Source: Candidatus Liptonbacteria bacterium
GTDB lineage: Bacteria > Patescibacteriota > Minisyncoccia > UBA6257 > 2-01-FULL-56-20
Direction of reading: 5' to 3'
DNA length: 36,757 nucleotides
NCBI GenBank assembly: GCA_043801735.1
Contig: JAZDLT010000020.1
Location: 1-36,757 of the forward strand
Part shown: positions 1,869 through 30,229 of the stretch, piece after piece
Position numbering within the stretch: position 1 is the stretch's first letter
Layout of the letters: each line of letters starts with the position of its first letter
Program-made: the position numbers and the translations under genes
The notes under the pieces: model-generated
Told to the model about the DNA's origin: nothing
The model's database searches: none
Seen by the model: the letters and a program-made list of their open reading frames with translations, nothing else

Positions 1869-4800
1869 ATGAAATCTCATCCGTTGCCCATAAAAAACTT
1901 TGGTAAGCATCTCCCCCTTATAGCCCAGCCCAATTTAAACGAGATCCAAATCCGCTCTTACAATGTTTTTCTTAAAGAGGGTTTGCAGGAAATACTAAAA
2001 GAGGTCTCGCCCATTTGGGACCACACCGGCAAGGAGTTAGCGCTTTATTTTGACGGATACTATTTCGGAGAGGCCAAGTACGACGAGAAAACCACCCGTT
2101 ACAAGGATGCGACCTACGAAGCTCCGCTTTACTTGAAGATAAGATTGGAAAATAAGCGCACGGGCAAAAGTCATTCCCAGGAGGTCTATTTCGGGGATTT
2201 CCCGAAGATGACCGACCGCGGAACTTTCATAATCAACGGCGTGGAGCGCGTGGTGGTTTCCCAGCTCATCCGTTCCGCTGGCGTTTACTTCACCGCGGTA
2301 CCCTGGAGGGAAAAAATGCTTTTCGGGGCGAAGGTTATCCCGAATCGCGGCGCCTGGCTGGAGTTCGAGACCGACATTGATGGAACCATTGGAGTGAAAA
2401 TAGACCGACACCGCAAGGTGCCCGTCACCGACCTCCTGCGTGTTTTCGGGGCGAGCGACGAACAAATTCGGGATATGTTCCAGGGAGTGGACGCCGGCGG
2501 TATTTCCTATATCGAAACTACCCTCAATAAAGATATCGCCCGAAACGTGGAGGAGTCCTATCTTGAAATATACCGCCGCCTCCGCCCTGGCGACCCGGCT
2601 ACCGCTCAAACCGCCAAGAATATGGTGGACTCCGTTTTCCACCGCGCCGACCGCTACGACATATCTCCGGTGGGGCGTTTCAAACTAAATCAGCGTTTAG
2701 ATCTAAATCCCAAAAAGGAGAGCGCCCTACTTGACCTAGAGGACTTGAAGGCGATTATTAAAGAAATAATCCGTCTCGACAACACTCCGGACGCGGAAGC
2801 GGACGATATTGACCACCTGGGCAACCGTCGTCTCAAGGCGGTGGGGGAGCTGATGCAAGGCCGTTTGCGCATCGGTTTCGCGCGCTTGCGGCGCATTATT
2901 CAGGATCGTATGTCCACTTTGGACAAGGACAGCATGTTGCCCGCGCAACTGATCAATTTTCGCCCAATTACCGCGGTGATCAAAGAATTTTTCTCCTCTT
3001 CTCAGCTTTCCCAGTTTATGGATCAAATAAATCCCCTGGCGGAGCTGGAGCATAAACGCCGTTTGTCCGCTCTTGGCCCGGGCGGCCTCACTCGCGAGCG
3101 AGCCAGCTTCGAAGTGCGGGACGTGCACCGCTCCCATTATGGCCGCATCTGTCCCATTGAAACGCCAGAGGGTTCCAACATCGGCCTTATCAACTATCTG
3201 GCCAGCTTTGCCCGCATGAACGACTTCGGGTTTTTGGAAACCCCCTATATGAGGGTAAAAAACGGTCGGGTGACGGATGAAGTGGTTTGGTTGGACGCCC
3301 TTTCGGAGGAGAAATACAAAATCGTGCATGCGACCGTTAGCCGAGACGAGAAGTGTAAAATCTTGGACAAGATGGTAGACGTAAGATACGGAATCAATCC
3401 CACCACTTGCCCGCCAGACGAAGTGGACTTTATGGATGTTGCCCCCAATCAATTCATATCCGTAGCGACCTCCCTTGTTCCATTTTTACAACACGACGAT
3501 GCCAACCGTGCCCTAATGGGTTCTAATATGCAGCGTCAGGCGGTGGCCCTAGTGAAACCAGTTGCGCCCTATGTCGGTACCGGTCAGGAAGAAAGAGCCG
3601 CGGAGGACTCCGGCTACTTGGTCCGGGCGGAGGCAAACGGAGAAGTGATAGAGGCAGACGCTTCTCATATTAAGGTTAGGTATGCCAACGAAACCAAAGT
3701 TTACCACCTCGAAAAATTCAAACGCTCCAATCAATTTACCTGTATCTCTCAACGGCCGGCGGTAGTGGCAGGGGATAAGGTTAAAAAAGGAAACCTCCTG
3801 GCGGACGGACCCTCGACCCAGAATGGAGTGCTCGCACTTGGCCAGAACTTGCTCGTGGCTTTTATCTCTTGGGAGGGAGCCAACTTTGAAGATGCGATTG
3901 TTCTTTCGGAACGGGTAGTAAGAGATGACTTTTTCACTTCCATTCATGTAGAGGAATTTTATTGCGACGTGCGGGACACCAAGCTTGGACCGGAGATAAC
4001 CACACCCGACATTCCGAACGTATCCGAGGAAAAGCTGCGCAACTTGAACGAAGAGGGCATTATTCGCATCGGCGCGGAAGTAAAGGCGGGCGATATTTTG
4101 GTCGGCAAGATCTCGCCTAAGGGCGAAGTGGAGCTGACCCCGGAAGAGCGCTTATTGCGAGCGATCTTTGGTGAAAAAGCGCGGGATGTTAAGGATACTT
4201 CGCTTACTTTGCCGCACGGTAAACATGGACGTATCGTGGGCGTGAAAGTTTTCAGCCGTGAACAGGGCGACAAGCTGGAAGCGGGCGTAATAAAGCGCAT
4301 TCAGGTGGAAGTCGCGGACGTGCGCAAAATCCAGGCGGGCGACAAATTGGCCGGCCGGCACGGCAATAAGGGCGTTATTTCTCAGGTTCGTCCTGTGGAA
4401 GACATGCCCTATCTGGAAGATGGCACGCCGGTGGATGTGGTGCTGAACCCGCTGGGCGTGGCTTCCCGTATGAACCTGGGTCAGATTTTGGAGACCCACC
4501 TGGGCTGGGCGGCCAAGACCCTGGGTTACCGCGCGGTTACTCCCGGATTGGATTCCGCCAAAGAAGCAGACATCCGCGCGGAATTGAAGCAGGCCGGGTT
4601 GCCGGAAGACGGCAAGATTAAACTCTACGACGGCCGCACTGGAGTGCCTTTCGATAAACCGGTCACGGTCGGGTATAAATACATACTCAAATTAAACCAC
4701 CTGGTGGAGGACAAGGTGCATATGCGCTCCATCGGTCCTTACTCGCTCATTACCCAGCAACCCCTGGGCGGCAAGGCGCAGTTCGGCGGCCAACGCTTCG

Positions 4801-7800
4801 GGGAAATGGAGGTCTGGGCGCTGGAGGGTTACGGCGCGCGCGCGACCTTGCAGGAAATGCTGACCATCAAGTCCGATGATGTGTTGGGTCGTTCTTCCGC
4901 CTACGAATCGATTATTCGGGGCGAGCCGATTAAGGGCCCCAATATCCCCGCCTCTTTCAATGTTCTGGTGAACGAGCTCAAGGCATTGAGTCTTAATATT
5001 GAGCCCGTATATGATTCGCCCGCCGATCGCAAAGACGACTTTAAGGCGCTACGCATCAGCGTGGCTTCCCCAGACGATATCTTGAAATGGTCTCACGGGG
5101 AGATTCTGAAGCCGGAGACCATCAACTATCGTACCCAACGACCGGAAAAAGACGGGCTATTTTCGGAGCGTATCTTTGGGCCGACCAAGGACTATGAATG
5201 CACCTGCGGCAAATATCGCCGCATCCGTTATAAGGGCGTGATTTGCGACAAATGTGGCGTGGAAGTCACGCGCGCGGTGGTGCGGCGGGAGCGCCTGGGT
5301 CATATTGCCCTAGCCGCGCCGGTCAGCCATATATGGTTTTTCAAAAGTGTTCCGTCCCGTTTGAGCTTGCTTTTAGATGTTTCTTCTGTTCGATTGGAGC
5401 GTGTTATTTATTACGTGGACTACATTGTAACCGTAGTGGACGAAGAGCACCGCAAGGAGGTTCTGGAGGATCTGGATCGGGAATTAAGGGGTAAGCTGAA
5501 AACGGTGGACGAAAAAGACCGTAAGGTGAAAACCGAACTAAACTCGGAAGCCAACCAGTCGCGGGCGACTTTGGAGGCCATGCGTCCCGGTCAGGTTCTG
5601 TCGGAAAACGAATATCTTTCCTTGAGTCGGCGTTTTGGCAGCGTGTTTAAGGCGGGTACCGGCGCGGAGGCGGTGCGGGAGATTTTGGAAAAGATGGATT
5701 TGCGCAAAGAGGTCCACAAGATCGAGAAAGAACTAGAACATTCCAAGGATAAAGAAACGGTCGGGGAAACCAAAATTTTGCGGCGCCTGAAAATGCTGCG
5801 TTCCATGATTAAAAACGGCACGCGCCCGGAGTGGTTGATAATGACCGTTCTACCGGTCTTGCCCCCGGATCTGCGCCCGATGGTAGCCCTCGACGGCGGA
5901 CGCTATGCCACCTCCGATTTGAATGACCTCTATCGCCGGGTTATCAACCGTAACAACCGCCTCAAGAAACTTCTGGAAATAAAAGCGCCGGAAGTCATCG
6001 TTAAAAACGAGAAGCGCATGCTGCAGGAGGCGGTAGACGCCCTGATTGATAATTCCGCCCGCTTCGGCACCCAACAACTTTCCGCCCGGCGCCGCCCACT
6101 CCGTTCTTTGGCGGATATGTTGAAGGGTAAGCAAGGCAGGTTTCGTCAAAACTTACTCGGTAAGCGCGTGGACTATTCCGGCCGCTCCGTCATCGTGGTC
6201 GGGCCCAAGCTTAGTATTGATGAGTGCGGTTTACCCAAGAAAATGGCGCTGGAACTCTTCCGCCCGTTCGTTATTAGTGAAATAATCAAACGCGAATTAG
6301 CGCACAACATCCGCAATGCGAATCGTCTCATAGAACAAGCCACGGATGAAATATGGGCAATCCTGGAAGAGATCACCAAAAATTATCGCGTCCTTTTGAA
6401 TCGTGCTCCGACCCTGCATCGCTTGTCCATCCAGGCCTTCAAGCCGATTTTGGTGGAAGGTCTGGCCATTCAGGTTCCGCCCTTGGTCTGCGCCGCTTTC
6501 AATGCGGACTTTGATGGCGACCAGATGGCAGTGCACATACCGCTTTCGGAGGAGGCCCAACGGGAAGCCAGGGAAATTATGGATGCCGGCCGCAACCTAC
6601 TGAAGCCCGCCACGGGCGAACTAATCACCGCGCCCACCCAGGATTTCGTTTTGGGCACATATTATCTTACTCAAATGTATCCGGAGACCAAGGGCGCGGG
6701 CCGAGCCTTTACCTGCATCAAAGAGGCCCTAATGGCTTACCACTACGAGGCGCTCTCGCTCCATGCCCCAATTCGGGTGGGTGAACATAAAGAGACCACC
6801 CTCGGCCGTCTTATCTTTAACGAAGTTCTAGGGGATACGTTGGAATACGTGAACGAGACCTTGAATAAAAAGAAGTTGGCGCGCTTAATAGAAAGGATAA
6901 TTGTTTCGGCGGGATTGGAAAAAGCCCGGGACATACTCCAGCGGGCAAAGCTTCTGGGTTTTGACATGGCCACCCGGAGCGGCATCACTTGGGCAATGGC
7001 CGATCTTATTATTCCAGCCGCCAAGGCGGGAATTGTGCGCAAGGCGGAAGAAGAAGTGAGCGTTATCCGGGAGCAGTACGATCAGGGTTTCTTGACGGAA
7101 GCCGAACGGCGGGCACGGGTAATTAGCATTTGGGAAAAAGTAAAAAGCGACATCGCCAAACAGGTAACCGGATCCTTGCCCGCGGACAACTCTATTTACC
7201 AAATTATTGATTCCGGTTCGCGCGGTTCTTGGTCTCAGCCGATTCAAATGATGGGCATGAAGGGTTTAGTGGCAAATCCCCGGGGAGAAGTAATCGAATT
7301 ACCTATCAAGTCGTCCTTCAAGGAAGGACTATCTGTGTTGGAATACTTCATCTCTACTCACGGCGCGCGCAAAGGCACGACCGACACCGCTCTTAAAACC
7401 GCCCAGGCCGGATATCTAACCCGCCGTCTGGTAGACGTTTCTCAAGACCTGACTATCAAGGAAGAGGATTGCAGGAGTAAGGACGGTATGGAAATCCTAC
7501 GCAATGACAGTAAAAATCTGGGACAATCTTTTAGTTCTAGAGTGTTTTCACGTACCGCTCTGGAAGATATCCGGGTAGAACGTAAAATTGTCGTCCGCGC
7601 GGGAGAGGCAATAGACCGAGCTACGGCGGATACCATAGACAAATCCGGCCTGGAGAGCGTTAAAGTCCGCTCGCCTTTGAACTGCAAAACCCTTTATGGT
7701 CTTTGCCAAAAGTGCTACGGTTTCGATCTGGGCGACAACAAACCCGTTAAAATCGGTTCCGCGGTCGGGGTGGTGGCTGCCCAATCCATTGGTGAACCGG

Positions 7801-8675
7801 GCACCCAGCTTACCATGCGCACTTTCCATGTGGGAGGCGTGGCTGGAGCGGACATCACTCACGGTTTACCGCGCGTGGAAGAGTTGTTTGAGGTTCGTCC
7901 GCCCAAGGGACGCGCGATCTTGGCGGGCGCGGACGGCCGTATAGAAAAAATAGAAGAAAGGGGCAACTTTAAAATAATCACCCTGACCGTTTCCGGGGAA
8001 AAGGTCCGTGCCAAGGGTAGGCGCACCAAGGACAAAAAAGCCCTGGAATACTCTATTCCCCGCTCCGCGATGATCTACGTGAAAACAGGCGACACGGTCA
8101 AGTTGGGTCAGCAGATAACGGAGGGCAACCTGGATTTGCGCGAACTTTTGGAGTATCGCGGCAGCGCGGAGGTTATCAGCTATATTATCGGTGAGGTCCA
8201 GAAAATATATAGCGCGGAGGGTGCCTCCATCAATAATAAGCATATCGAAATAATTGCCCGCCAAATGTTCTCTCGGGTAAGGGTGAAAGAAACGGGTGAC
8301 GCAGTCGATTTAGTGATGGGCGAAGTTCTGGAACGCTCCCGGTTTCTAGAAATAAATCGTGAGCTGAAGCATCAGGGTAAGCGCCTGGCTAAGGCCCAGC
8401 AACTACTTTTGGGGATCACTCGGGTGGCGCTTTCCACGGAATCCTTTCTTTCCGCCGCCTCCTTCCAAGATACCGCCCGGGTATTGGTTAAGGCCGCCAT
8501 CGAGAGCAGAACGGATTCCTTGCGCGGTCTCAAAGAGAACGTGATTATTGGACGCCTCATCCCGGCCGGGGACACCAGTCGTTCCGGTTTGAGCCCGGAA
8601 ACAAAGGGCGAAGCGCTTATTTCCGAAGCGGTTTCTCCCTCGGAAGAGGGAGAGGAAGAGGCGGTTTCGGAATAA
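1869..8675 (+). CDS. rpoBC: DNA-directed RNA polymerase beta-beta' fusion protein (rpoB and rpoC in one 2268-aa ORF)
   Basis: The N-terminal part (about 1040 aa) carries beta hallmarks (GDFPKMTDRGTFIINGVERVVVSQL, NLGQILETHLGWAA, GEMEVWALEGYGA). The remainder carries beta' hallmarks: Zn finger CTCGKYRRIRYKGVICDKCGVEV, catalytic NADFDGDQMAVH, and GGQRFGEME upstream. The junction ...NIEPVYDSPADRKDDFKALRISVASP... at about nt 5007-5042 has no stop and no in-frame ATG. Confidence 0.95.
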   Translation: MKSHPLPIKNFGKHLPLIAQPNLNEIQIRSYNVFLKEGLQEILKEVSPIWDHTGKELALYFDGYYFGEAKYDEKTTRYKDATYEAPLYLKIRLENKRTGKSHSQEVYFGDFPKMTDRGTFIINGVERVVVSQLIRSAGVYFTAVPWREKMLFGAKVIPNRGAWLEFETDIDGTIGVKIDRHRKVPVTDLLRVFGASDEQIRDMFQGVDAGGISYIETTLNKDIARNVEESYLEIYRRLRPGDPATAQTAKNMVDSVFHRADRYDISPVGRFKLNQRLDLNPKKESALLDLEDLKAIIKEIIRLDNTPDAEADDIDHLGNRRLKAVGELMQGRLRIGFARLRRIIQDRMSTLDKDSMLPAQLINFRPITAVIKEFFSSSQLSQFMDQINPLAELEHKRRLSALGPGGLTRERASFEVRDVHRSHYGRICPIETPEGSNIGLINYLASFARMNDFGFLETPYMRVKNGRVTDEVVWLDALSEEKYKIVHATVSRDEKCKILDKMVDVRYGINPTTCPPDEVDFMDVAPNQFISVATSLVPFLQHDDANRALMGSNMQRQAVALVKPVAPYVGTGQEERAAEDSGYLVRAEANGEVIEADASHIKVRYANETKVYHLEKFKRSNQFTCISQRPAVVAGDKVKKGNLLADGPSTQNGVLALGQNLLVAFISWEGANFEDAIVLSERVVRDDFFTSIHVEEFYCDVRDTKLGPEITTPDIPNVSEEKLRNLNEEGIIRIGAEVKAGDILVGKISPKGEVELTPEERLLRAIFGEKARDVKDTSLTLPHGKHGRIVGVKVFSREQGDKLEAGVIKRIQVEVADVRKIQAGDKLAGRHGNKGVISQVRPVEDMPYLEDGTPVDVVLNPLGVASRMNLGQILETHLGWAAKTLGYRAVTPGLDSAKEADIRAELKQAGLPEDGKIKLYDGRTGVPFDKPVTVGYKYILKLNHLVEDKVHMRSIGPYSLITQQPLGGKAQFGGQRFGEMEVWALEGYGARATLQEMLTIKSDDVLGRSSAYESIIRGEPIKGPNIPASFNVLVNELKALSLNIEPVYDSPADRKDDFKALRISVASPDDILKWSHGEILKPETINYRTQRPEKDGLFSERIFGPTKDYECTCGKYRRIRYKGVICDKCGVEVTRAVVRRERLGHIALAAPVSHIWFFKSVPSRLSLLLDVSSVRLERVIYYVDYIVTVVDEEHRKEVLEDLDRELRGKLKTVDEKDRKVKTELNSEANQSRATLEAMRPGQVLSENEYLSLSRRFGSVFKAGTGAEAVREILEKMDLRKEVHKIEKELEHSKDKETVGETKILRRLKMLRSMIKNGTRPEWLIMTVLPVLPPDLRPMVALDGGRYATSDLNDLYRRVINRNNRLKKLLEIKAPEVIVKNEKRMLQEAVDALIDNSARFGTQQLSARRRPLRSLADMLKGKQGRFRQNLLGKRVDYSGRSVIVVGPKLSIDECGLPKKMALELFRPFVISEIIKRELAHNIRNANRLIEQATDEIWAILEEITKNYRVLLNRAPTLHRLSIQAFKPILVEGLAIQVPPLVCAAFNADFDGDQMAVHIPLSEEAQREAREIMDAGRNLLKPATGELITAPTQDFVLGTYYLTQMYPETKGAGRAFTCIKEALMAYHYEALSLHAPIRVGEHKETTLGRLIFNEVLGDTLEYVNETLNKKKLARLIERIIVSAGLEKARDILQRAKLLGFDMATRSGITWAMADLIIPAAKAGIVRKAEEEVSVIREQYDQGFLTEAERRARVISIWEKVKSDIAKQVTGSLPADNSIYQIIDSGSRGSWSQPIQMMGMKGLVANPRGEVIELPIKSSFKEGLSVLEYFISTHGARKGTTDTALKTAQAGYLTRRLVDVSQDLTIKEEDCRSKDGMEILRNDSKNLGQSFSSRVFSRTALEDIRVERKIVVRAGEAIDRATADTIDKSGLESVKVRSPLNCKTLYGLCQKCYGFDLGDNKPVKIGSAVGVVAAQSIGEPGTQLTMRTFHVGGVAGADITHGLPRVEELFEVRPPKGRAILAGADGRIEKIEERGNFKIITLTVSGEKVRAKGRRTKDKKALEYSIPRSAMIYVKTGDTVKLGQQITEGNLDLRELLEYRGSAEVISYIIGEVQKIYSAEGASINNKHIEIIARQMFSRVRVKETGDAVDLVMGEVLERSRFLEINRELKHQGKRLAKAQQLLLGITRVALSTESFLSAASFQDTARVLVKAAIESRTDSLRGLKENVIIGRLIPAGDTSRSGLSPETKGEALISEAVSPSEEGEEEAVSE

Positions 8676-8780
8676 TTGACGTAACCTTTTAAATCGGTTA
8701 AAGTTTGTAGCGCTTAAGTGCCGCGCGAAGCGCGGTCGGGTGCGTTTTCTGAAACAAAGAACAACTTCTTTATCAGGCAA

Positions 8781-9224
8781 ATGGAACAAGATAACGAAAA
8801 ACAGGGCAGGGATTACGAGGCCTCTTTTTTAAGCCAAGAAGAAAACGGCAAGGAGGTTCTGCTTCAATGGATCGGCCGTTTTGGGGGAGAGGTGCTACTG
8901 GAGGGACCATCGGAAAAGATTGCTCTGGCTTATCCTGTCGCCAAGCAAACCTCCGCCTATTTTGGCTTTGCGCACTTCCGTATGAATCCGGACCAGGCCG
9001 CGGCATTGGCACGCGAACTCAAAACCGCCGGAACGTTTCTGCGCTTTCTTCTGGTTACTCCACCTTGCGTTAAGGCCAAACCCAGGACCATGAATCCACG
9101 CGGCAGCCGCCCGGCGGAGGCGGTGGAGGCCTCCTTGCCGTCCGTAGAGCACAAACCGATCAGCGAGACCTTGAGCAACGAAGATCTGGAAAAGAAAATC
9201 GAAGAAATACTCCGTCAGCAATAG
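8781..9224 (+). CDS. rpsF: 30S ribosomal protein S6 with C-terminal extension
   Basis: S6-like core (KIALAYPVAKQTSAYFGFAHF...FLRFLLV). It sits in the conserved rpsF-ssb-rpsR order. The ORF-track start at 8718 is probably too far upstream; ATG at 8781 (MEQDNEK) is preferred. Confidence 0.8.
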   Translation: MEQDNEKQGRDYEASFLSQEENGKEVLLQWIGRFGGEVLLEGPSEKIALAYPVAKQTSAYFGFAHFRMNPDQAAALARELKTAGTFLRFLLVTPPCVKAKPRTMNPRGSRPAEAVEASLPSVEHKPISETLSNEDLEKKIEEILRQQ

Positions 9225-9273
9225 TAATCACAAACCCGCCCGCCGGTAGGTGAGCAACTCGAATCAAGGAATA

Positions 9274-9322
9274 AATAACGCGAATATATAAACTTGCAAA
9301 AAACACCGACAATTCGCATTAT
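9274..9322. repeat. ORF-less inverted-repeat pair related to the termini of the GxxExxY element
   Basis: AATAACGCGAAT (9274-9285) and ATTCGCATTATT (9311-9322) are 11/12 inverted. The second 12-mer is identical to 28899-28910 and 28980-28991. Confidence 0.5.
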
Positions 9323-9336
9323 TAAATAAAAATTAG

Positions 9337-9352
9337 CTCCGCCGACTGGCGG
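9337..9352. repeat. GC-rich hairpin repeat TCCGCC-GACT-GGCGGA
   Basis: Perfect 6-bp stem flanked by ATTAG on both sides. Same unit as at 20721-20736 and 33202-33217. Confidence 0.7.
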
Positions 9353-9357
9353 AATTA

Positions 9358-9840
9358 GTGAGCACCCCAATGAACTTAAATAAAGTTTTTATCATAGGTA
9401 GAGTGACGGCAGACCCGCAGTTACGCAACACGCCCGCGGGAGCATCGGTTACAACCTTCGGGGTGGCGACCAATCGGGTCTGGCAGGGAAAGAACGGTCA
9501 GAAACAGGAAGAGGCGGAGTTCCACTCCGTAGTGGCTTGGGGTCGCCAAGCGGAGATTGCCAGTCAATTTTTGGTAAAAGGCGCGTTGGTTTATGTGGAG
9601 GGTCGTTTGCGCACTCGCACTTGGCAAGATAAGCAAGGCCAGAATCATAAGGTTACGGAAACAATCTGCGAAAGATTGCAGCTTGGTCCGCGCGCGGGCG
9701 GGGGAGCGGCTCCGATGGGAAATCCCGCCGCTGCATCCGCCAAAGAGAATAAAGCGGAAGACGTGCAGTCCGCGCCGCCAGAAGAGATTCCGATAATCGA
9801 TCTGGAGGATGACATTAAGCCAGAGGATTTACCATTCTAA
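9358..9840 (+). CDS. ssb: Single-stranded DNA-binding protein
   Basis: OB-fold core NKVFIIGRVTADPQLRNTPAGASVTTFGVATNR...EFHSVVAWGRQAE...VYVEGRLRTRTW and an acidic C-terminal tip EDLPF. The start may be ATG at 9367 rather than GTG at 9358. Confidence 0.93.
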   Translation: MSTPMNLNKVFIIGRVTADPQLRNTPAGASVTTFGVATNRVWQGKNGQKQEEAEFHSVVAWGRQAEIASQFLVKGALVYVEGRLRTRTWQDKQGQNHKVTETICERLQLGPRAGGGAAPMGNPAAASAKENKAEDVQSAPPEEIPIIDLEDDIKPEDLPF

Positions 9841-26729: not shown

Positions 26730-28445
26730 ATGAACTTACCTATTCCCATAGAACAATTGAAAGAAAGATTGATTGCGGACGGAATCATCTCGTCCGAGAA
26801 ATTTGACGCATATGTGGCCGAGGCGGAACGGAAAAATCAAAATCTTTTGGAACTTTTAATCTCCGAAAATGTGGCCAGCACGCTTTATCTTTATGGCATT
26901 ATTTCCGAACTTCTGGGGGTGGGCTTGGCCAGTTTGGGGTTACGTCACATAGACGAAAACGTCCTTAATCTTTTACCCGAAGAGGTGGCGCGCCAACAGG
27001 AGTCCATTGTTTTTGGGGTAGAGGAGGATGGGACGTTAGATGTTGCCATGCTTGATCCGAACGACCTGCAGGTGGTGGAATTTTTGACGCAATATCTTAA
27101 GGCGCGCATTAGGCCGTATCTGGCTACCCGGGAAGACCTAAACCGCGGCTATGCCATTTATGGTTTTAAGTCCACATCCGATTTCCAGAAGATAATCGAA
27201 GAGAACGTGCAGGAATCCCTGCGTAAGCAGTCCAACTCCACGGAAGAAGCGGCGGCCGACTTGCCCATCGTGGCGATTGTGGAAAATATCCTGTCTTTCG
27301 CGATATCCCTGCGTGCTTCCGATATTCACATCGAGACCCTGGAAGAAGCCACCCTCATTCGCTACCGCATAGATGGCATTCTGCGGGAAATCATCCGTAT
27401 TCCCAAGTCGGTCCACTCCGCGATTGCAGCGCGCTTCAAGATACTTTCCGGGCTTAAAATCGACGAGCACTATAAACCCCAGGACGGGCGATTTCGTCAC
27501 AATGTGGTAAATCAGACGGTGGACGTGCGCGTTTCCGTTATGCCCACTTTTTACGGCGAGAAGGTAGAAATGCGCCTCTTGGAATCCGCCCAAAAACCCC
27601 TTTCTTTGGAAGAAATCGGCATTTTGCCGCGCATCGCGAGAGTCGTGGAGGATAATATGAGAAAGACCTACGGCATGCTTATAATCTGCGGCCCGACCGG
27701 TTCCGGCAAGTCCACCACCCTTTATGCTTTCATGAATATCCTGAACCGACCCAACGTTAACATTTGTACCATTGAAGATCCGATCGAGTACAATATGCGC
27801 TATATTAACCAGTCCCAAATAAACGTTCAGGCGGGCATCACTTTCGCGAGCGGTTTGCGCGCGCTTTTGCGCCAGGACCCGAACATAATCATGGTCGGTG
27901 AAATCCGCGACAAGGAAACAGCCGCCATTTCCGTGCAGGCGGCCTTAACCGGGCACTTACTTCTGTCTTCGCTTCACACCAACGATGCCCCGACCGCAAT
28001 ACCGCGCCTATTCGACCTGGATATTCCGCCTTATCTGGTCGGCTCGGTGCTGAATCTGGTGGTGGCCCAGCGCCTGGTGCGCCGCATCTGTAATTCCTGC
28101 ATTTACTCCTACGAAGAAAGTCCGGAAAACAAGGAAATAATTTTGCGCCAATTACGCGAGATGGATCTATCCGATCCGGAAAAATTCCTGCTCAAAATGT
28201 TCTTCAAGGGTAAGGGTTGCGCGATTTGCGCGGAATCCGGCTACCGTGGCCGGATCGGCATTTTCGAGATTTTAGCGGTCAGCGATACGATAAAGAAAAT
28301 GATCGTGGAGCCGCATCTTGACCTGGATAAATTACGCGCAGAGGCGCGACAGGAGGGCAGTCGCACTATGTTTGAGGATGGTTTGGAAAAAATTCAGCTG
28401 GGCATAACTACGGTGGAAGAAGTGTTGCGCGTCATAAGGGAGTAA
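26730..28445 (+). CDS. pilB: Type IV pilus assembly ATPase PilB/GspE family
   Basis: Walker A GPTGSGKST, GEIRD, His box LSSLHTND, and a tetracysteine motif CNSC...CAIC. Confidence 0.93.
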   Translation: MNLPIPIEQLKERLIADGIISSEKFDAYVAEAERKNQNLLELLISENVASTLYLYGIISELLGVGLASLGLRHIDENVLNLLPEEVARQQESIVFGVEEDGTLDVAMLDPNDLQVVEFLTQYLKARIRPYLATREDLNRGYAIYGFKSTSDFQKIIEENVQESLRKQSNSTEEAAADLPIVAIVENILSFAISLRASDIHIETLEEATLIRYRIDGILREIIRIPKSVHSAIAARFKILSGLKIDEHYKPQDGRFRHNVVNQTVDVRVSVMPTFYGEKVEMRLLESAQKPLSLEEIGILPRIARVVEDNMRKTYGMLIICGPTGSGKSTTLYAFMNILNRPNVNICTIEDPIEYNMRYINQSQINVQAGITFASGLRALLRQDPNIIMVGEIRDKETAAISVQAALTGHLLLSSLHTNDAPTAIPRLFDLDIPPYLVGSVLNLVVAQRLVRRICNSCIYSYEESPENKEIILRQLREMDLSDPEKFLLKMFFKGKGCAICAESGYRGRIGIFEILAVSDTIKKMIVEPHLDLDKLRAEARQEGSRTMFEDGLEKIQLGITTVEEVLRVIRE

Positions 28446-28941
28446 TCGCGAATAACGCAAATCAAATAGGTAATAACGCAAATATGGAGAGGGATGTAAT
28501 CACCAATATTGCGAGTATGGATTCAAGAAAAGAAATAGTGCTGCCAGAATTAAGCTTCGGTGTCGTCGGAGCCGCATTTGACGTGTTTAATAATCTCGGT
28601 TGGGGATTTCCTGAAAGAAATTACCAGAATGCGTTGGCGGAAGAACTGGCCACCCGTAAGATAAATTTCAAACGGGAAGTTTATATCCCCTTAATTTATA
28701 AAACCTCCAATATCGGTAGATACTTTGCGGACTTCATTATTGAGGATAGGGCGCTCCTAGAATTAAAAGTTGTCTCTAAGTTTGGTTATGTTCATGCCAA
28801 GCAGGTGTTGGCGTATCTCTGTGCGGCCAGATTAAGGTTGGGCATTCTGGTATACTTTACAAAGGATGGGGTTAAGTATCGTCGTGTTTTAAATCCCCAT
28901 TCGCATTATTTGCAATAAATTTGCGATATTAGCGATTACTC
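28440..28941 (+). mobile_element. Compact TIR-bounded element carrying a single GxxExxY ORF
   Basis: The outer 10-mers GAGTAATCGC (28440-28449) and GCGATTACTC (28932-28941) are exact inverted repeats. Inside them are two 12-mers per end: AATAACGCAAAT at 28451 and 28472, versus ATTCGCATTATT at 28899 and ATTTGCGATATT at 28917. Confidence 0.6.
28484..28918 (+). CDS. GxxExxY family protein (PD-(D/E)XK-like fold family)
   Basis: Signature GFPERNY (G-x-x-E-x-x-Y) at the expected position, followed by YIPLIYK...ADFIIEDRALLELK, which is typical of the family. Confidence 0.8.
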   Translation: MERDVITNIASMDSRKEIVLPELSFGVVGAAFDVFNNLGWGFPERNYQNALAEELATRKINFKREVYIPLIYKTSNIGRYFADFIIEDRALLELKVVSKFGYVHAKQVLAYLCAARLRLGILVYFTKDGVKYRRVLNPHSHYLQ

Positions 28942-28944
28942 TAT
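28894..28944 (+). repeat. 51-bp direct repeat, copy 1
   Basis: TCCCCATTCGCATTATTTGCAATAAATTTGCGATATTAGCGATTACTCTAT is identical to 28975-29025. Confidence 0.9.
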
Positions 28945-28974
28945 TATGTTTTCAAGTCAAAATAGTCGTGTATA

Positions 28975-29025
28975 TCCCCATTCGCATTATTTGCAATAAA
29001 TTTGCGATATTAGCGATTACTCTAT
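28975..29025 (+). repeat. 51-bp direct repeat, copy 2 (ends within the pilC start codon)
   Basis: Perfect copy of 28894-28944, 30 nt downstream of it. The pilC ATG is at 29024. Confidence 0.9.
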
Positions 29026-30229
29026 GCTTTATCATTACATTGCCGCGGACAAGACGGGAAGGGTCGTGGAGGCCGATTACGACGCGGACGATCTGGCGGG
29101 AGTTTTGCAGCATATAAACAGCCGGGAACTTCGTCCGGTAGCGGTCCGGCCAGTCAAACCGTCTTCTTTTGGTCTTTCGCTCTCCGGCGGGCGAATAACT
29201 CTCCCGGACAAAGTGTTTCTCACTAAGTACTTGTCGCTAATGCTTAAAGTTGGCACCGACCTACTTTCCGCCATCAACATCCTGATAGCGGATTTCGAGG
29301 GTCCGGCCATGAAGAATTTTTTGTTGGAGGTGCGGGAAAACCTGACCAAGGGCAGGCCTTTCTACGAGGCGTTTGCCAAGCATCCCAAGTATTTCTCGGA
29401 AGTTATGGTCAATCTGGTCCGGGCGGCGGAGGCCTCCGGTAATTTGCAGAAAACTTTTGACGATTTAAGCACATCCCTTCAGAGAGACGCGGATCTGCAG
29501 AACAGGGTGCGTTCCGCGCTGATTTACCCCATTCTTTTACTTGTTACTTCGATGGTAGTCGTGATTTTTTTGGTTACTTTTGCCTTGCCTAAAATCGCCA
29601 AAGTTTTCGCGGACACAGGCATGAATCCGCCTACTTTTTCCCGCATTGTTTTCGCGGTCGGACTTTTTATTAACGACCATATTTACGGAGTGCTCGCCTC
29701 CATAATTCTCACGATCGTTTTTAGCATCTACTTTTTCTTCTTCACGATGGTGGGCAGAAGAGTGGGAGATCGGATAATAGGCGGATTGCCGGTCATCAAA
29801 CAAACCCATCGGGACTTGGCGGTCCAAAGATTTTCCGCCACCTTCAGTTCTCTGATGCGCGCCGGTTTACCTATTATTCAGGCCATTAAAATAACCGCGA
29901 AAGTGGTGGGGACGGAGGAGTTCCGGGTGGCGCTAGTCCGCATCGCGGACGAGGGCCTGGCCAAGGGTATTTCTATCGGCGAATCTTTCCGCCGGGAAAA
30001 GGTTTTTCCGCAGGTGGTCACCAATCTTATCGCCGTATCCGAAAAGGCGGGCCACCTGGAAGACGTGCTCGAAACCATCTCCGAATTCTATGCCTCCAAC
30101 GTGGAAGCGAACGTGCGCGCGCTGGTCTCCGTGCTGGAGCCGCTTCTCTTAATAACCATGGGTCTAATGGTGGGCGGCATCTCGCTGGCGATAATTATTC
30201 CCATCTATCAGCTTACCAATCAATTCTGA
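29024..30229 (+). CDS. pilC: Type IV pilus platform protein PilC/GspF family
   Basis: 401 aa with duplicated GspF-type cytoplasmic domains and three TM spans. Positioned after pilB. Confidence 0.9.
   Translation: MLYHYIAADKTGRVVEADYDADDLAGVLQHINSRELRPVAVRPVKPSSFGLSLSGGRITLPDKVFLTKYLSLMLKVGTDLLSAINILIADFEGPAMKNFLLEVRENLTKGRPFYEAFAKHPKYFSEVMVNLVRAAEASGNLQKTFDDLSTSLQRDADLQNRVRSALIYPILLLVTSMVVVIFLVTFALPKIAKVFADTGMNPPTFSRIVFAVGLFINDHIYGVLASIILTIVFSIYFFFFTMVGRRVGDRIIGGLPVIKQTHRDLAVQRFSATFSSLMRAGLPIIQAIKITAKVVGTEEFRVALVRIADEGLAKGISIGESFRREKVFPQVVTNLIAVSEKAGHLEDVLETISEFYASNVEANVRALVSVLEPLLLITMGLMVGGISLAIIIPIYQLTNQF

What the first reader, a model, noticed from the sequence alone, without database searches (positions are those of the whole stretch)
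28440..29025. GxxExxY ORF behaves like a miniature TIR-bounded mobile element inserted between pilB and pilC, with a perfect 51-bp duplication
**Seen in sequence.**
- The 144-aa GxxExxY gene is bounded by exact inverted 10-mers: GAGTAATCGC at 28440 and GCGATTACTC at 28932.
- Each 10-mer is followed inward by two copies of a 12-mer: AATAACGCAAAT twice on the left, and inverted 10/12 and 11/12 copies on the right.
- The left terminus contains the pilB stop codon.
- The right terminus plus the last 25 nt of the ORF (51 bp, 28894-28944) is repeated perfectly at 28975-29025, where it supplies the sequence immediately upstream of, and including, the first bases of the pilC ATG.

**Established knowledge.** GxxExxY proteins belong to the PD-(D/E)XK-like superfamily. 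They are notorious for sitting in odd places such as 23S rRNA intervening sequences, and their function and mobility are unresolved.

**Inference.** This is a discrete insertion that split a pilB-pilC junction and regenerated the pilC 5' region. It would be unusually clear evidence that these genes travel as self-contained elements.
Basis: partly seen in the sequence, partly recalled or inferred. Interest (0 to 1): 0.66.

Follow-up and report, generated by a model that had tools for sequence, protein, structure and literature searches.

The report
Compact TIR-bounded GxxExxY nuclease element
A 502-bp unit carrying one small nuclease gene between transposon-like inverted ends sits exactly between two pilus genes; the same ends flank this enigmatic gene family at many other gene junctions in related bacteria, alongside empty sites and gene-less miniature copies, so these genes look like self-contained mobile elements.

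Summary
Window 28440-28941 is a discrete 502-bp unit. It has a perfect 10-bp terminal inverted repeat, GAGTAATCGC / GCGATTACTC. Each end carries two AATAAYGCRAAT subterminal 12-mers. Between the ends lies one intact PD-(D/E)XK (PF13366 / TIGR04256, GxxExxY) ORF. The unit lies between the pilB stop codon and the pilC ATG.

The same end architecture bounds 27 other Parcubacteria GxxExxY genes at 12 or more different gene junctions. Six terminal positions are invariant at both ends in 28/28 elements. Moranbacteria, Bacteroidota and others show the same layout with different repeat sequences.

- **Empty sites:** relatives have pilB|pilC junctions with stop and start only 1-4 nt apart.
- **Derivatives:** ORF-less miniatures of 105-190 bp, internal-deletion copies and pseudogenised copies exist. 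One miniature lies 0.9 kb from its apparent parent.
- **Composition:** the element has 40% GC against 50-51% in its flanks.
- **Arm mismatches:** they show no RNA-wobble bias, which favours protein-bound DNA ends over an RNA stem.
- **Stability:** elements are stable over population timescales and often inherited vertically.
- **The duplication:** the "51-bp" repeat is 52 bp exact. It is a duplicated right end, a recurrent family feature, and not target regeneration.

Catalysis of mobility by the nuclease is inferred, not shown. I found no literature describing these elements.

The parts
26730..28445 (+). pilB-like T2SSE ATPase gene. Its last codon and stop (GAG TAA, 28440-28445) lie inside the element's left terminal 10-mer.
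   Evidence: ORF list. PF00437 T2SSE at 391 bits.
28440..28941 (+). The whole 502-bp element: left end, GxxExxY ORF, right end.
   Evidence: Inverted repeat I1, 30 nt at 87%. GC 40.4% against 50-51% in the flanks. Empty sites in relatives. Same architecture at 27 other loci.
28440..28449 (+). Left terminal 10-mer GAGTAATCGC.
   Evidence: Core AGTAATCGC: positions A1, G2, T3, T6, C7 and C9 are invariant at both ends of 28/28 elements.
28451..28462 (+). Left subterminal 12-mer 1, AATAACGCAAAT (family motif AATAAYGCRAAT).
28472..28483 (+). Left subterminal 12-mer 2, AATAACGCAAAT. It starts 21 nt after 12-mer 1 and directly abuts the ATG at 28484.
   Evidence: Family start-to-start spacing is mostly 19-22 nt.
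28484..28918 (+). GxxExxY / PDDEXK_3 ORF, 144 aa from the first ATG; the database call starts at 28517 (133 aa). The PD-(D/E)XK motif is intact: D72, E82-x-K84 and G30/E33/Y36 in 133-aa numbering. The C-terminal tail is translated right-end repeat.
   Evidence: AlphaFold2 model pLDDT 89.5. Best PDB folds are Cas4 SSO0001, lambda exonuclease and MGME1.
28899..28910 (-). Right subterminal 12-mer 2 (ATTCGCATTATT on the + strand), overlapping the 3' end of the ORF.
28919..28930 (-). Right subterminal 12-mer 1 (ATTTGCGATATT on the + strand).
28932..28941 (-). Right terminal 10-mer (GCGATTACTC on the + strand), first copy.
28945..28973 (.). Spacer between the two right-end copies. It is possibly a decayed ORF 3' end (AAGT....ATAGTCGTG against AAGTATCGTCGTG), but the support is weak.
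   Evidence: Local alignment of the left extension gives p = 0.04; the right extension is not significant.
28974..29025 (+). Second, exact 52-nt copy of 28893-28944. It holds the last 25 nt of the ORF, both right 12-mers (28980-28991, 29000-29011) and the right 10-mer (29013-29022). It abuts and overlaps the pilC ATG.
   Evidence: The single-copy arrangement in L001/L047 abuts pilC identically.
29024..30229 (+). pilC-like T2SSF gene, starting 2 nt after the (second) right end with no Shine-Dalgarno sequence in between.
   Evidence: PF00482 at 158 bits.
9222..9370 (+). Probable ORF-less relic of the same family. It lies between the stop (TAG) of ORF 8718-9224 and the ATG (9371) of the next gene. 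TAGTAATCAC (8/10 of the 10-mer) overlaps the stop. Inverted 12-mers AATAACGCGAAT (9274-9285) and ATTCGCATTATT (9312-9323) both fit AATAAYGCRAAT exactly.
   Evidence: By my own arithmetic, about 0.009 chance matches to the degenerate 12-mer are expected per strand of the window.

Best explanation
Window 28440-28941 is one copy of an ultra-compact, TIR-bounded selfish DNA element of about 0.5 kb. Its only gene is a ~130-aa PD-(D/E)XK nuclease of the GxxExxY (PDDEXK_3) family.

**Shown.**
- The unit is a discrete, compositionally foreign insertion in the 1-4-nt gap between the pilB stop and the pilC start.
- Its ends are (G)GAGTAATCGC-N-AATAAYGCRAAT-N7-10-AATAAYGCRAAT, inverted. They are conserved at the ends of the same gene family in many unrelated junctions.
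- The two ends of one element co-vary.
- ORF-less miniature, internally deleted and pseudogenised derivatives exist.
- Elements always lie co-oriented inside operons.
- The left end supplies stop codons for the upstream gene, and the right end abuts the downstream ATG.

**Inferred.**
- The nuclease, probably as a dimer or higher oligomer, binds the helically phased 12-mers at both ends and cuts at or near the AGTAATCGC termini.
- Movement or copying then relies on host repair or recombination, because no joining enzyme is encoded.
- The ORF is expressed by read-through transcription of the host operon; no promoter or terminator was detected.
- Only insertions that fall in the tiny stop-start gaps, in the sense orientation, survive in these gene-dense genomes.
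- Mobility is rare. Copies persist vertically for long periods, decay into miniatures or relics, and are sometimes replaced.
- The second right end in the window is a local duplication of one end, later kept identical, and is not part of the insertion mechanism.
For: 1. **Conserved ends.** 28 elements share the end architecture. AGTAATCGC positions 1, 2, 3, 6, 7 and 9 are invariant at both ends. Flanking inverted repeats are significant in 40 of 42 family loci across Patescibacteria, Bacteroidota and Ignavibacteriota, with lineage-specific repeat sequences.
2. **Many junctions.** At least 12 junction types are occupied: pilB|pilC, prfB|ftsE, aaRS|cytidylyltransferase, permease|response regulator, ClpP|2-Hacid_dh, tRNA_edit|AIRS and others.
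3. **Empty sites.** pilB|pilC is empty in L049, L050, L057 and L058. ftsE|ftsX is empty in L005, L024, L028 and L038 but filled by a miniature in L022.
4. **Derivatives.**
 - Miniatures occur in L009, L013, L017 and L022.
 - L046 has an internal deletion and L040 a 5' deletion.
 - L006, L038 and L025 are pseudogenes that keep their ends.
 - The L022 miniature differs from the full element 0.9 kb away by 3/44 at each end and shares its spacers.
5. **Co-varying ends.** Ends of one element are more alike than ends of different elements: 3.9 against 5.1 mismatches per 24 nt; 0 of 20,000 permutations reached the observed mean.
6. **No RNA signature.**
 - Arm mismatches comprise 64 transversions, 23 GU-type and 23 AC-type.
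 - The spacers differ in length between the two arms.
 - So there is no RNA-stem signature.
 - The 12-mers start 19-22 nt apart, about two helical turns.
7. **Intact nuclease.** The catalytic D...ExK motif is invariant or nearly so. The model has pLDDT 89.5 and matches nuclease folds.
8. **Foreign composition.** GC 40% against 50-51%.
9. **Position in operons.** The upstream stop lies -6 to +12 nt from the left end in 26 of 28 elements, and 15 use the TAA inside AGTAATCGC. The downstream ATG lies 0-6 nt after the right end in 24 of 28. All are co-oriented.
10. **No own signals.** There is no promoter or terminator enrichment.
Against: - **No recent movement seen.** Identical proteins (P0042 in 24 contigs, P0053 in 15) always sit in the same context.
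- **Vertical residence.** Same-junction elements are about as diverged as their flanking genes, for example 70% against 78-79% and 60% against 47-61%. This fits long vertical residence and purifying selection on the ORF, which is unusual for a purely selfish gene.
- **No target-site duplication.** None of 3 nt or more is visible.
- **No joining activity.** A 130-aa nuclease has none, and no IS family known to me (my own knowledge) uses a PD-(D/E)XK enzyme as sole transposase.
- **Not in phages.** The terminus pattern is absent from viral contigs.
- **Limited same-genome evidence.** Only one miniature (L022) is clearly closest to its co-resident full copy.
- **No biochemistry.** No binding or cleavage data exist.
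Confidence: 0.7

Rival explanations
1. Domesticated or mutualistic system of the RAYT/REPIN type. The GxxExxY nuclease is a long-term, vertically inherited resident. It maintains or disperses its cognate short repeats, or serves the host at gene junctions. It is not the engine of an autonomous transposon, and the full 'element' itself rarely or never moves.
For: - Same-junction copies are as diverged as their host genes.
- Identical proteins never occur in two contexts.
- Most ORFs are intact despite their age.
- ORF-less inverted-repeat doublets sit at other junctions.
- Paralogues in one genome (L021 and L027, same contig) carry different, self-matched end variants.
Against: - Pseudogenised and deleted copies and loss or replacement in L048 argue against an essential host role.
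- At least 12 junction types imply that full copies did insert repeatedly.
- The element is compositionally foreign.
Confidence: 0.2
2. RNA-level module like a 23S rRNA intervening sequence. The inverted ends exist to form a long stem in the operon transcript. The stem would be cut by RNase III, or would bring the upstream stop next to the downstream start. That RNA function is what conserves the ends.
For: - The MFE fold pairs the left end with a right end.
- The stop codon and the ATG sit at the base of the would-be stem.
- Published IVSs have terminal inverted repeats that form an RNase III-cleaved stem around an ORF (PMC4990558).
Against: - Arm mismatches show no G-U preference: 23 GU-type, 23 AC-type and 64 transversions.
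- Spacer lengths differ between the arms.
- Position 19 of the first 12-mer is systematically different on the two sides, G against T/A.
- Any TIR folds this way.
- The model does not explain empty sites or the DNA-level spread to new junctions.
Confidence: 0.07
3. Free-standing homing endonuclease gene. The nuclease cuts the empty allele of a specific junction and is copied in by double-strand-break repair. The inverted repeats are incidental.
For: - It is a small nuclease gene wedged between conserved genes, with empty alleles in relatives.
- There is no target-site duplication.
- The same junctions recur across genera: prfB|ftsE eight times and pilB|pilC five to six times.
- Another small nuclease ORF (GIY-YIG-like, identified by eye) occupies pilB|pilC in L056.
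Against: - At least 12 unrelated junctions are hit by elements with nearly identical ends.
- The insertion point relative to the prfB end varies by 0-4 nt.
- Conserved structured TIRs and ORF-less miniatures that still spread are not features of homing endonuclease genes.
Confidence: 0.08
4. Ordinary regulatory DNA or a chance repeat around a resident gene, with no mobility.
For: None beyond the a priori possibility. No same-population insertion polymorphism was observed.
Against: - Relatives lacking the ORF lack the repeats and have a 1-4-nt junction.
- The repeats travel with the gene to unrelated junctions.
- The shuffle controls exclude chance.
Confidence: 0.01

Closest known systems
Bacterial IS/MITE-type TIR elements (for example IS630-mobilised MITEs and the Neisseria Correia elements)
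   Same: - Terminal inverted repeats with subterminal repeated motifs.
- One short ORF between the ends.
- ORF-less miniature derivatives of 100-190 bp that share the ends.
- Location in intergenic gaps.
- Presence/absence polymorphism between relatives.
   Different: - No DDE, serine, tyrosine or HUH transposase is encoded; the only protein is a ~130-aa PD-(D/E)XK nuclease.
- No target-site duplication is visible.
- Orientation is strictly with the host operon.
- Insertion falls exactly at stop/start junctions.
- Copy number is very low and there are no recent jumps.
RAYT / REP-REPIN systems (IS200/IS605-like HUH Y1 nucleases flanked by their REP sequences)
   Same: - A small single-domain nuclease gene is flanked by inverted copies of its own short cognate repeats.
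- Gene-less inverted doublets lie elsewhere in intergenic DNA.
- Persistence is vertical and long-term.
- The protein and its repeats co-evolve.
   Different: - The enzyme fold differs: PD-(D/E)XK, not HUH.
- The 12-mers are not palindromic hairpins.
- A distinct conserved terminal 10-mer is present.
- Gene-less copies are few, at least in the about 0.4 Mb sampled.
ORF-containing 23S rRNA intervening sequences (S23p / four-helix-bundle ORFs; GxxExxY ORFs are also reported there, from my own recollection of the TIGR04256 family description)
   Same: - A small ORF is enclosed by terminal inverted repeats.
- Distribution is sporadic.
- Such sequences have long been suspected to be mobile, with the ORF needed for mobility (hypotheses quoted in PMC4990558).
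   Different: - This copy lies between protein-coding genes, not in rRNA.
- No RNA-type covariation was found.
- None of the 11 loci scanned lies in rRNA.
Free-standing homing endonuclease genes (for example the phage T4 seg/mob genes; my own knowledge)
   Same: - A small nuclease gene is inserted between conserved genes.
- Empty alleles occur in relatives.
- There is no target-site duplication.
- Copies degenerate and are lost.
   Different: - Homing endonuclease genes have no TIRs and no miniature derivatives.
- They target one long specific site, whereas here many unrelated junctions are occupied.
TnsA of Tn7 and Cas4-like nucleases of mobile elements
   Same: - The catalytic fold is PD-(D/E)XK, acting (TnsA) at transposon ends.
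- The best structural neighbours of the model are Cas4 SSO0001, lambda exonuclease and MGME1.
   Different: - TnsA works together with a DDE transposase (TnsB).
- No sequence-level relationship was detected: a profile search of PDB chains gave 0 hits.
- The TM-score is only about 0.57.

Membership tests
GxxExxY protein family (Pfam PF13366 PDDEXK_3 / NCBIfam TIGR04256) | Score above the curated cut-offs of the family models | tested here: met
   PF13366 at 107 bits against cut-off 22. TIGR04256 at 106.9 bits against cut-off 35.
GxxExxY protein family (Pfam PF13366 PDDEXK_3 / NCBIfam TIGR04256) | GxxExxY motif and the PD-(D/E)XK catalytic signature (D ... E-x-K) | tested here: met
   G30, E33, Y36 and D72 are invariant; E82 and K84 are at least 90% conserved in 24 homologues and present in the window protein. 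The predicted alpha/beta nuclease fold has pLDDT 89.5.
GxxExxY protein family (Pfam PF13366 PDDEXK_3 / NCBIfam TIGR04256) | Nuclease activity | not testable with these tools
   No biochemical data exist. There is no solved structure by sequence search.
TIR transposable element / MITE parent | Terminal inverted repeats conserved among copies | tested here: met
TIR transposable element / MITE parent | Copies at different genomic sites, and empty sites in relatives | tested here: met
   At least 12 junction types. Empty pilB|pilC and ftsE|ftsX sites.
TIR transposable element / MITE parent | Non-autonomous derivatives that share the ends | tested here: met
   Miniatures in L009, L013, L017 and L022, and the L046 deletion derivative.
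TIR transposable element / MITE parent | Target-site duplication flanking the TIRs | tested here: not met
   No direct repeat of 3 nt or more, and no duplicated host codon, at filled against empty junctions. The sequences are too diverged to exclude 1-2 nt.
TIR transposable element / MITE parent | Encoded transposase of a recognised catalytic class (DDE, DEDD, HUH, Ser, Tyr) | tested here: not met
   The only ORF is PDDEXK_3.
TIR transposable element / MITE parent | Demonstrable recent transposition (identical copies at several sites) | tested here: not met
   Identical proteins are always in one context. The nearest evidence is the L022 miniature, with 3/44 mismatches per end to its neighbour.
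RAYT/REPIN system | HUH Y1 (IS200/IS605-like) nuclease | tested here: not met
   The protein is PD-(D/E)XK.
RAYT/REPIN system | Nuclease gene flanked by inverted cognate repeats that also occur as gene-less doublets | tested here: met
   The window relic at 9274-9323 is one such doublet.
Homing endonuclease gene | One long, specific target site, with all copies at homologous positions | tested here: not met
   At least 12 unrelated junctions are occupied, and the insertion point at prfB varies by 0-4 nt.
23S rRNA intervening sequence | Located inside a 23S rRNA helix and excised from the RNA | tested here: not met
   The element lies between pilB and pilC. There is no rRNA in the window or in the 11 loci scanned. 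RNA excision is not testable here.

The most novel reading that the evidence does not exclude
GxxExxY/PDDEXK_3 proteins are the mobilising nucleases of a previously unrecognised, phylum-spanning class of ultra-compact TIR elements.

- The family has about 21,000 clusters at 50% identity.
- The elements are about 0.5 kb, have MITE-like offspring and live in the stop-start gaps of operons.
- This would be an insertion-sequence class whose sole enzyme is a PD-(D/E)XK nuclease.
- The same elements would be the origin of the ORF-bearing inverted-repeat 'intervening sequences' of 23S rRNA.
Probability: 0.4. Interest if true: 0.85.

Novelty: new variant of a known kind. Interest (0 to 1): 0.72.

Why it matters
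**What is known.** GxxExxY/PDDEXK_3 is a very large family: 20,878 clusters at 50% identity with E <= 1e-3. Its function was listed as 'Unknown' in the 2012 PD-(D/E)XK census (PMC3424549). The term 'GxxExxY' appears in only 3 papers of the searchable library, and neither of the two listed has it in its title or abstract.

**The open question.** Whether ORF-bearing, inverted-repeat-bounded intervening sequences are mobile, and whether the ORF provides mobility, has been asked since the early 1990s (hypotheses summarised in PMC4990558).

**What this locus and its relatives add.**
- A concrete anatomy that can be tested directly. It comprises a defined 10-bp terminus, two phased 12-bp putative binding sites per end, an intact nuclease, natural miniatures and known empty sites.
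- If the nuclease is the mobilising enzyme, it would be a new enzymatic class of prokaryotic insertion sequence.
- If not, it is a PD-(D/E)XK analogue of the RAYT/REPIN relationship.
- Operon stop-start junctions in gene-dense CPR genomes turn out to be a niche shared by several families of tiny inverted-repeat elements. This matters for annotating start and stop codons and C-terminal extensions in these genomes.

Tried and rejected
- **Exact-protein look-ups.** The window's 144-aa ORF and PilC are not on record. The database gene call starts at M12.
- **RNA-stem reading.** Rejected as the main constraint. There is no G-U bias and the spacers are unequal. The MFE pairing of the ends is expected for any TIR.
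- **Rfam.** Only tRNAs were found in the window and in 11 loci, so the rRNA/IVS context could not be examined.
- **PDB.** A sequence profile search gave 0 hits. The fold search gave only generic Cas4 / lambda-exonuclease / MGME1 neighbours with TM-score about 0.57, so no mechanistic assignment follows.
- **Promoter and terminator scan of 28300-29150.** Nothing above shuffles.
- **Terminus pattern in viral contigs.** 0 matches.
- **Recent transposition.** Identical proteins in different contexts were sought and not found.
- **Clustering by junction.**
  - Only the closest pairs cluster (L005-L010, L008-L009, L006-L011, window-L001).
  - Deeper relations are unresolved at 60-72% identity.
  - Ancient vertical inheritance and repeated site-biased insertion therefore cannot be separated.
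- **Longer tandem duplication.** I tested whether the window's duplication was originally an 81-bp tandem duplication reaching into pilC. The left extension is marginal (p = 0.04) and the right is not significant, so this is left open.
- **Target-site duplication.** None was seen.
- **Literature searches.** Searches for GxxExxY, PDDEXK_3/PF13366/TIGR04256, IVS with inverted repeats, and Patescibacteria MITEs returned nothing describing these elements. Two searches failed on syntax.


Full report
**1.

Reading 28200-29300 and running the repeat finder confirm each stated feature.
- GAGTAATCGC lies at 28440-28449. The pilB-like ORF ends at 28445, so GAG TAA is its last codon plus stop.
- The exact reverse complement GCGATTACTC lies at 28932-28941.
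- AATAACGCAAAT occurs twice, at 28451 and 28472. Inverted copies lie at 28919 (11/12) and 28899 (10/12).
- A direct repeat spans 28890-28944 and 28971-29025. Its exact part is 52 nt, 28893-28944 = 28974-29025, not 51.
- The ORF 28484-28918 is PF13366 PDDEXK_3 (107 bits) and TIGR04256 GxxExxY (106.9 bits). The public gene call starts at M12, giving 133 aa.
- The neighbours are T2SSE (pilB-like) and T2SSF (pilC-like) genes.
- The 12-mer is over-represented: 13 matches against 4.8 +/- 2.3 in shuffles. The flank-to-flank inverted alignment has z = 8.6.

**2. It is a discrete insertion**

Homologue names place the window in Parcubacteria/Patescibacteria. A PilC-based scan of metagenome contigs returned pilB|pilC junctions from relatives.
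- **L047** (identical in this region to L001): PilC is 84% identical, the junction is occupied by the same element, and there is no duplication.
- **L049 and L050** (60-61%): empty. They read ...AGA GAA TGA g ATG CTT TAC and ...GAA TAA g ATG.
- **L057 and L058** (49%): empty. They read ...AGG GAG TAG aatt ATG.
- **L048**: PilC is 82% identical to the window and 88% to L047. It carries a different ~105-bp AT-rich inverted-repeat insert instead.
- **L056**: carries a small GIY-YIG-like ORF (identified by eye).
- **L051**: carries arrays of right-end-type subrepeats without an ORF.

The PilC identities give the grouping (window,(L047,L048)). The element was therefore either lost or replaced in L048, or gained twice. 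The element has 40.4% GC (GC3 44%), against 50-51% (GC3 61-63%) for pilB and pilC.

**3. The ends belong to the gene family, not to the locus**

A profile-guided scan of one genome per species gave 43 GxxExxY loci. I printed and aligned their flanks.

Twenty-eight Parcubacteria elements share this architecture at both ends, in inverted orientation: (G/A)G-AGTAATCGC-N-AATAAYGCRAAT-N7-10-AATAAYGCRAAT. Positions A1, G2, T3, T6, C7 and C9 of the terminal 9-mer are invariant at both ends in 28/28.

The genomic contexts differ:
- pilB|pilC in the window, L001/L047, L014, L040 and L046, and a related ATPase junction in L021;
- prfB|ftsE in eight genomes;
- an aminoacyl-tRNA synthetase | cytidylyltransferase junction in two;
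- a permease | response-regulator junction in two;
- ClpP|2-hydroxyacid dehydrogenase, tRNA_edit|AIRS, and several singletons.

More distant family members have the same layout with other repeat units:
- Moranbacteria: CTTTACTAATTACTAAT...;
- Bacteroidota and Ignavibacteriota: ACACGAAT / ATTCGTGT units;
- Berkelbacteria: CATAGAT units.

In all, 40 of 42 loci have flanking inverted repeats with z >= 2.7, and 37 have z > 5.

**4. Derivatives typical of a decaying mobile element**

Scanning all held DNA for end signatures and reading the hits showed the following.
- **ORF-less miniatures** consist of a left end plus a right end and span 105-190 bp. They occur at L009 5083-5266, L013 6012-6166, L017 6510-6639 and L022 6269-6399.
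- **An internal-deletion copy** keeps only the last 26 codons (L046). A 5'-deleted copy occurs in L040.
- **Pseudogenes with intact ends** occur in L006 (two stops), L038 (frameshift) and L025.
- **The L022 miniature** lies between the ftsE stop and the ftsX ATG, 0.9 kb from a full element at prfB|ftsE. It differs from that element by only 3/44 at each end and has the same spacer sequences. The next-best elements differ by 6-9.
- **The same ftsE|ftsX junction** is empty in L005, L024, L028 and L038, with the stop 0-4 nt from the ATG.
- **In the window itself**, 9222-9370 looks like a relic. TAGTAATCAC overlaps the upstream stop. Two inverted 12-mers that fit the motif exactly lie at 9274 and 9312.

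**5. What constrains the ends**

The two ends of one element are more similar to each other than to the ends of other elements. Over 24 nt the means are 3.9 against 5.1 mismatches, and 0 of 20,000 permutations reached the observed mean. Ends therefore co-evolve within an element.

This is not RNA-type conservation:
- Arm differences comprise 64 transversions, 23 changes that would be G-U on the sense RNA and 23 that would be A-C.
- The spacer between the two 12-mers differs in length between the arms of the same element.
- One position of the outer 12-mer is systematically G on the left but T/A on the right.

The 12-mers start 19-22 nt apart, and the terminal motif starts about 10-11 nt before the first 12-mer. 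That is roughly two helical turns and one helical turn. This phasing fits protein binding on one face of duplex DNA; the link to protein binding is my inference.

**6. The protein**

The GxxExxY motif and D72 are invariant, and E82-x-K84 are at least 90% conserved, in 24 homologues. The AlphaFold2 model is confident, with pLDDT 89.5 and pTM 0.83. Its best PDB neighbours are Cas4 SSO0001 (TMq 0.57), lambda-type exonucleases and MGME1. A sequence-profile search of PDB chains gave no hit.

The family is huge: 20,878 clusters at 50% identity with E <= 1e-3.

**7. Position and orientation**

In all 28 elements the upstream gene is on the same strand.
- In 26 of 28 its stop lies -6 to +12 nt from the left end.
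- 15 use the TAA inside AGTAATCGC.
- L022 and L026 read AGT AAT CGC TAA, and L004 and L007 stop at +12.
- In L015 and L017, which have extra left ends, the stop lies at about +30.

The terminal motif is therefore element DNA that supplies stop codons in two frames.

In 24 of 28 the downstream gene starts 0-6 nt after the right end. Two further loci are cut by contig ends, and two have no gene there.

Empty junctions have only 1-4 nt between stop and start. Selection alone could therefore explain this precision, and a target preference cannot be separated from it with these data. No promoter or terminator signal stands out, which is consistent with read-through expression from the host operon.

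**8. Tempo**

Identical proteins seen in 24 and 15 contigs always have the same neighbours. Elements at the same junction in different species are about as diverged as the flanking genes. Only the closest pairs cluster by junction.

Movement is thus rare. Many copies are old vertical residents with ORFs under purifying selection. This is the main reason to keep a RAYT/REPIN-like 'resident nuclease plus dispersed repeats' model as the chief rival.

**9. The duplication**

In L001/L047 a single right end abuts the pilC ATG exactly as the window's second copy does. The duplication is therefore not needed to restore pilC.

Duplication of one end together with a few adjoining ORF bases recurs:
- right ends in L009 and L016;
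- left ends in L015, L017, L021 (44 nt exact, including ATGGAT) and L027 (45 nt exact);
- the miniatures of L009 and L013.

In the window the 52 nt are identical, whereas the adjoining bases are at best weakly similar (p = 0.04 on the left, not significant on the right). This suggests homogenisation of the ends, or a mechanism that regenerates them. I cannot assign a mechanism.

**10. Comparison with known systems, and novelty**

The element works most like a TIR insertion sequence with MITE offspring, or like a RAYT/REPIN system. It fails defining tests of both:
- it encodes no recognised transposase class and shows no target-site duplication;
- it is not HUH and has no palindromic REP.

It is not a classical homing endonuclease gene, because it occupies many unrelated targets and has TIRs and miniatures. 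It is not in rRNA.

The library held only three papers mentioning GxxExxY and two mentioning PDDEXK_3 or PF13366. Of the four listed, the 2012 PD-(D/E)XK census gives the family's function as 'Unknown', and none of the other titles or abstracts concerns it. Searches on IVS mobility and on Patescibacteria MITEs found no description of these elements. The IVS literature still treats the origin and mobility of ORF-bearing IVSs as open (PMC4990558).

I therefore rate this a new variant of a known kind. There is a substantial chance (about 0.4) that it represents a new enzymatic class of insertion sequence.

**11. Confidence**

| Claim | Confidence |
|---|---|
| The window feature is a discrete member of a TIR-bounded element family that has inserted at many junctions over evolutionary time | about 0.9 |
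| The encoded nuclease recognises the 12-mers and is responsible for end cleavage or mobilisation | about 0.5-0.6 |
| The statement as a whole | 0.7 |

Noticed in passing
window 9222-9370: Probable ORF-less relic of the same element family, between the stop of ORF 8718-9224 and the ATG at 9371. TAGTAATCAC overlaps the stop. Inverted 12-mers AATAACGCGAAT (9274-9285) and ATTCGCATTATT (9312-9323) lie 26 nt apart. A GC-rich stretch sits where the outer 12-mers should be.
   Followed up: partly
L048 520-630 (pilB|pilC junction); also L051 1040-1140: The relative whose PilC is 88% identical to L047 lacks the GxxExxY element. In the same gap it has a ~105-bp AT-rich inverted repeat built of AAATGCAAAAT-like units. 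The same motif occurs in L051. This looks like a different family of junction-dwelling miniature elements, and like turnover at one site.
   Followed up: partly
L026 6128-6276 and L025 6259-6380 (ftsE|ftsX junctions): Other stop-start gaps are filled by inverted arrays of short units: (TTTCTAAT)x9 facing AGAAATTAGAAATT in L026, and ATTAAGTATTAAGT facing AATTCATAATTCATT in L025. Several unrelated repeat families seem to share this niche in CPR genomes.
   Followed up: no
L056 730-1143: A small ORF between pilB and pilC looks like a GIY-YIG nuclease (MFYYTYILQS...YTGYT...). A second kind of small nuclease gene thus occupies the same junction. The identification is by eye and was not scanned against Pfam.
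   Followed up: no
L051 1480-1600: Upstream of pilC lies an array of at least six right-end-type subrepeats (ATTCGCGTT.., ATTCGCATTAT, ATTCGTATTATT ...) plus ACTAAT-type repeats, with no GxxExxY ORF. These appear to be stacked relics of several elements.
   Followed up: no
proteins P0095-P0098, P0104, P0108 and others: Many of the best-scoring family representatives are about 250-280 aa with two GxxExxY domains. These could be tandem fusions, or read-through of tandem elements. If they are real proteins, they would fit a dimeric working unit.
   Followed up: no
L021 4899-5000; L027 4870-5000; L009 2700-2780; L016 5400-5470; L017 4790-4960; window 28893-29025: About a quarter of the elements carry an extra copy of one end together with the first or last few ORF bases. 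The copy is often exact over 44-52 nt while the neighbouring bases have diverged. The mechanism is unexplained.
   Followed up: partly
N-termini of database proteins P0014, P0015, P0018, P0029, P0062; L022 4983: The 12-mer AATAATGCGAAT contains an ATG and reads N-N-A-N in frame. Many annotated GxxExxY N-termini ('MNNAN...', 'MRMLANNAN...') are therefore translated end repeats. The true start codons are uncertain.
   Followed up: no
window 29013-29026, and the right ends of most loci: Downstream genes start 0-6 nt after a pyrimidine-rich right end (…ATTACTCY ATG) with no Shine-Dalgarno sequence. In empty sites an AGGGAG or AGAGAA sits in the last pilB codons. How translation of the downstream gene is kept up after the insertion is unclear.
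   Followed up: no
window 1869-8675: A single 2268-aa ORF occupies 6.8 kb of the window. It was not examined.
   Followed up: no
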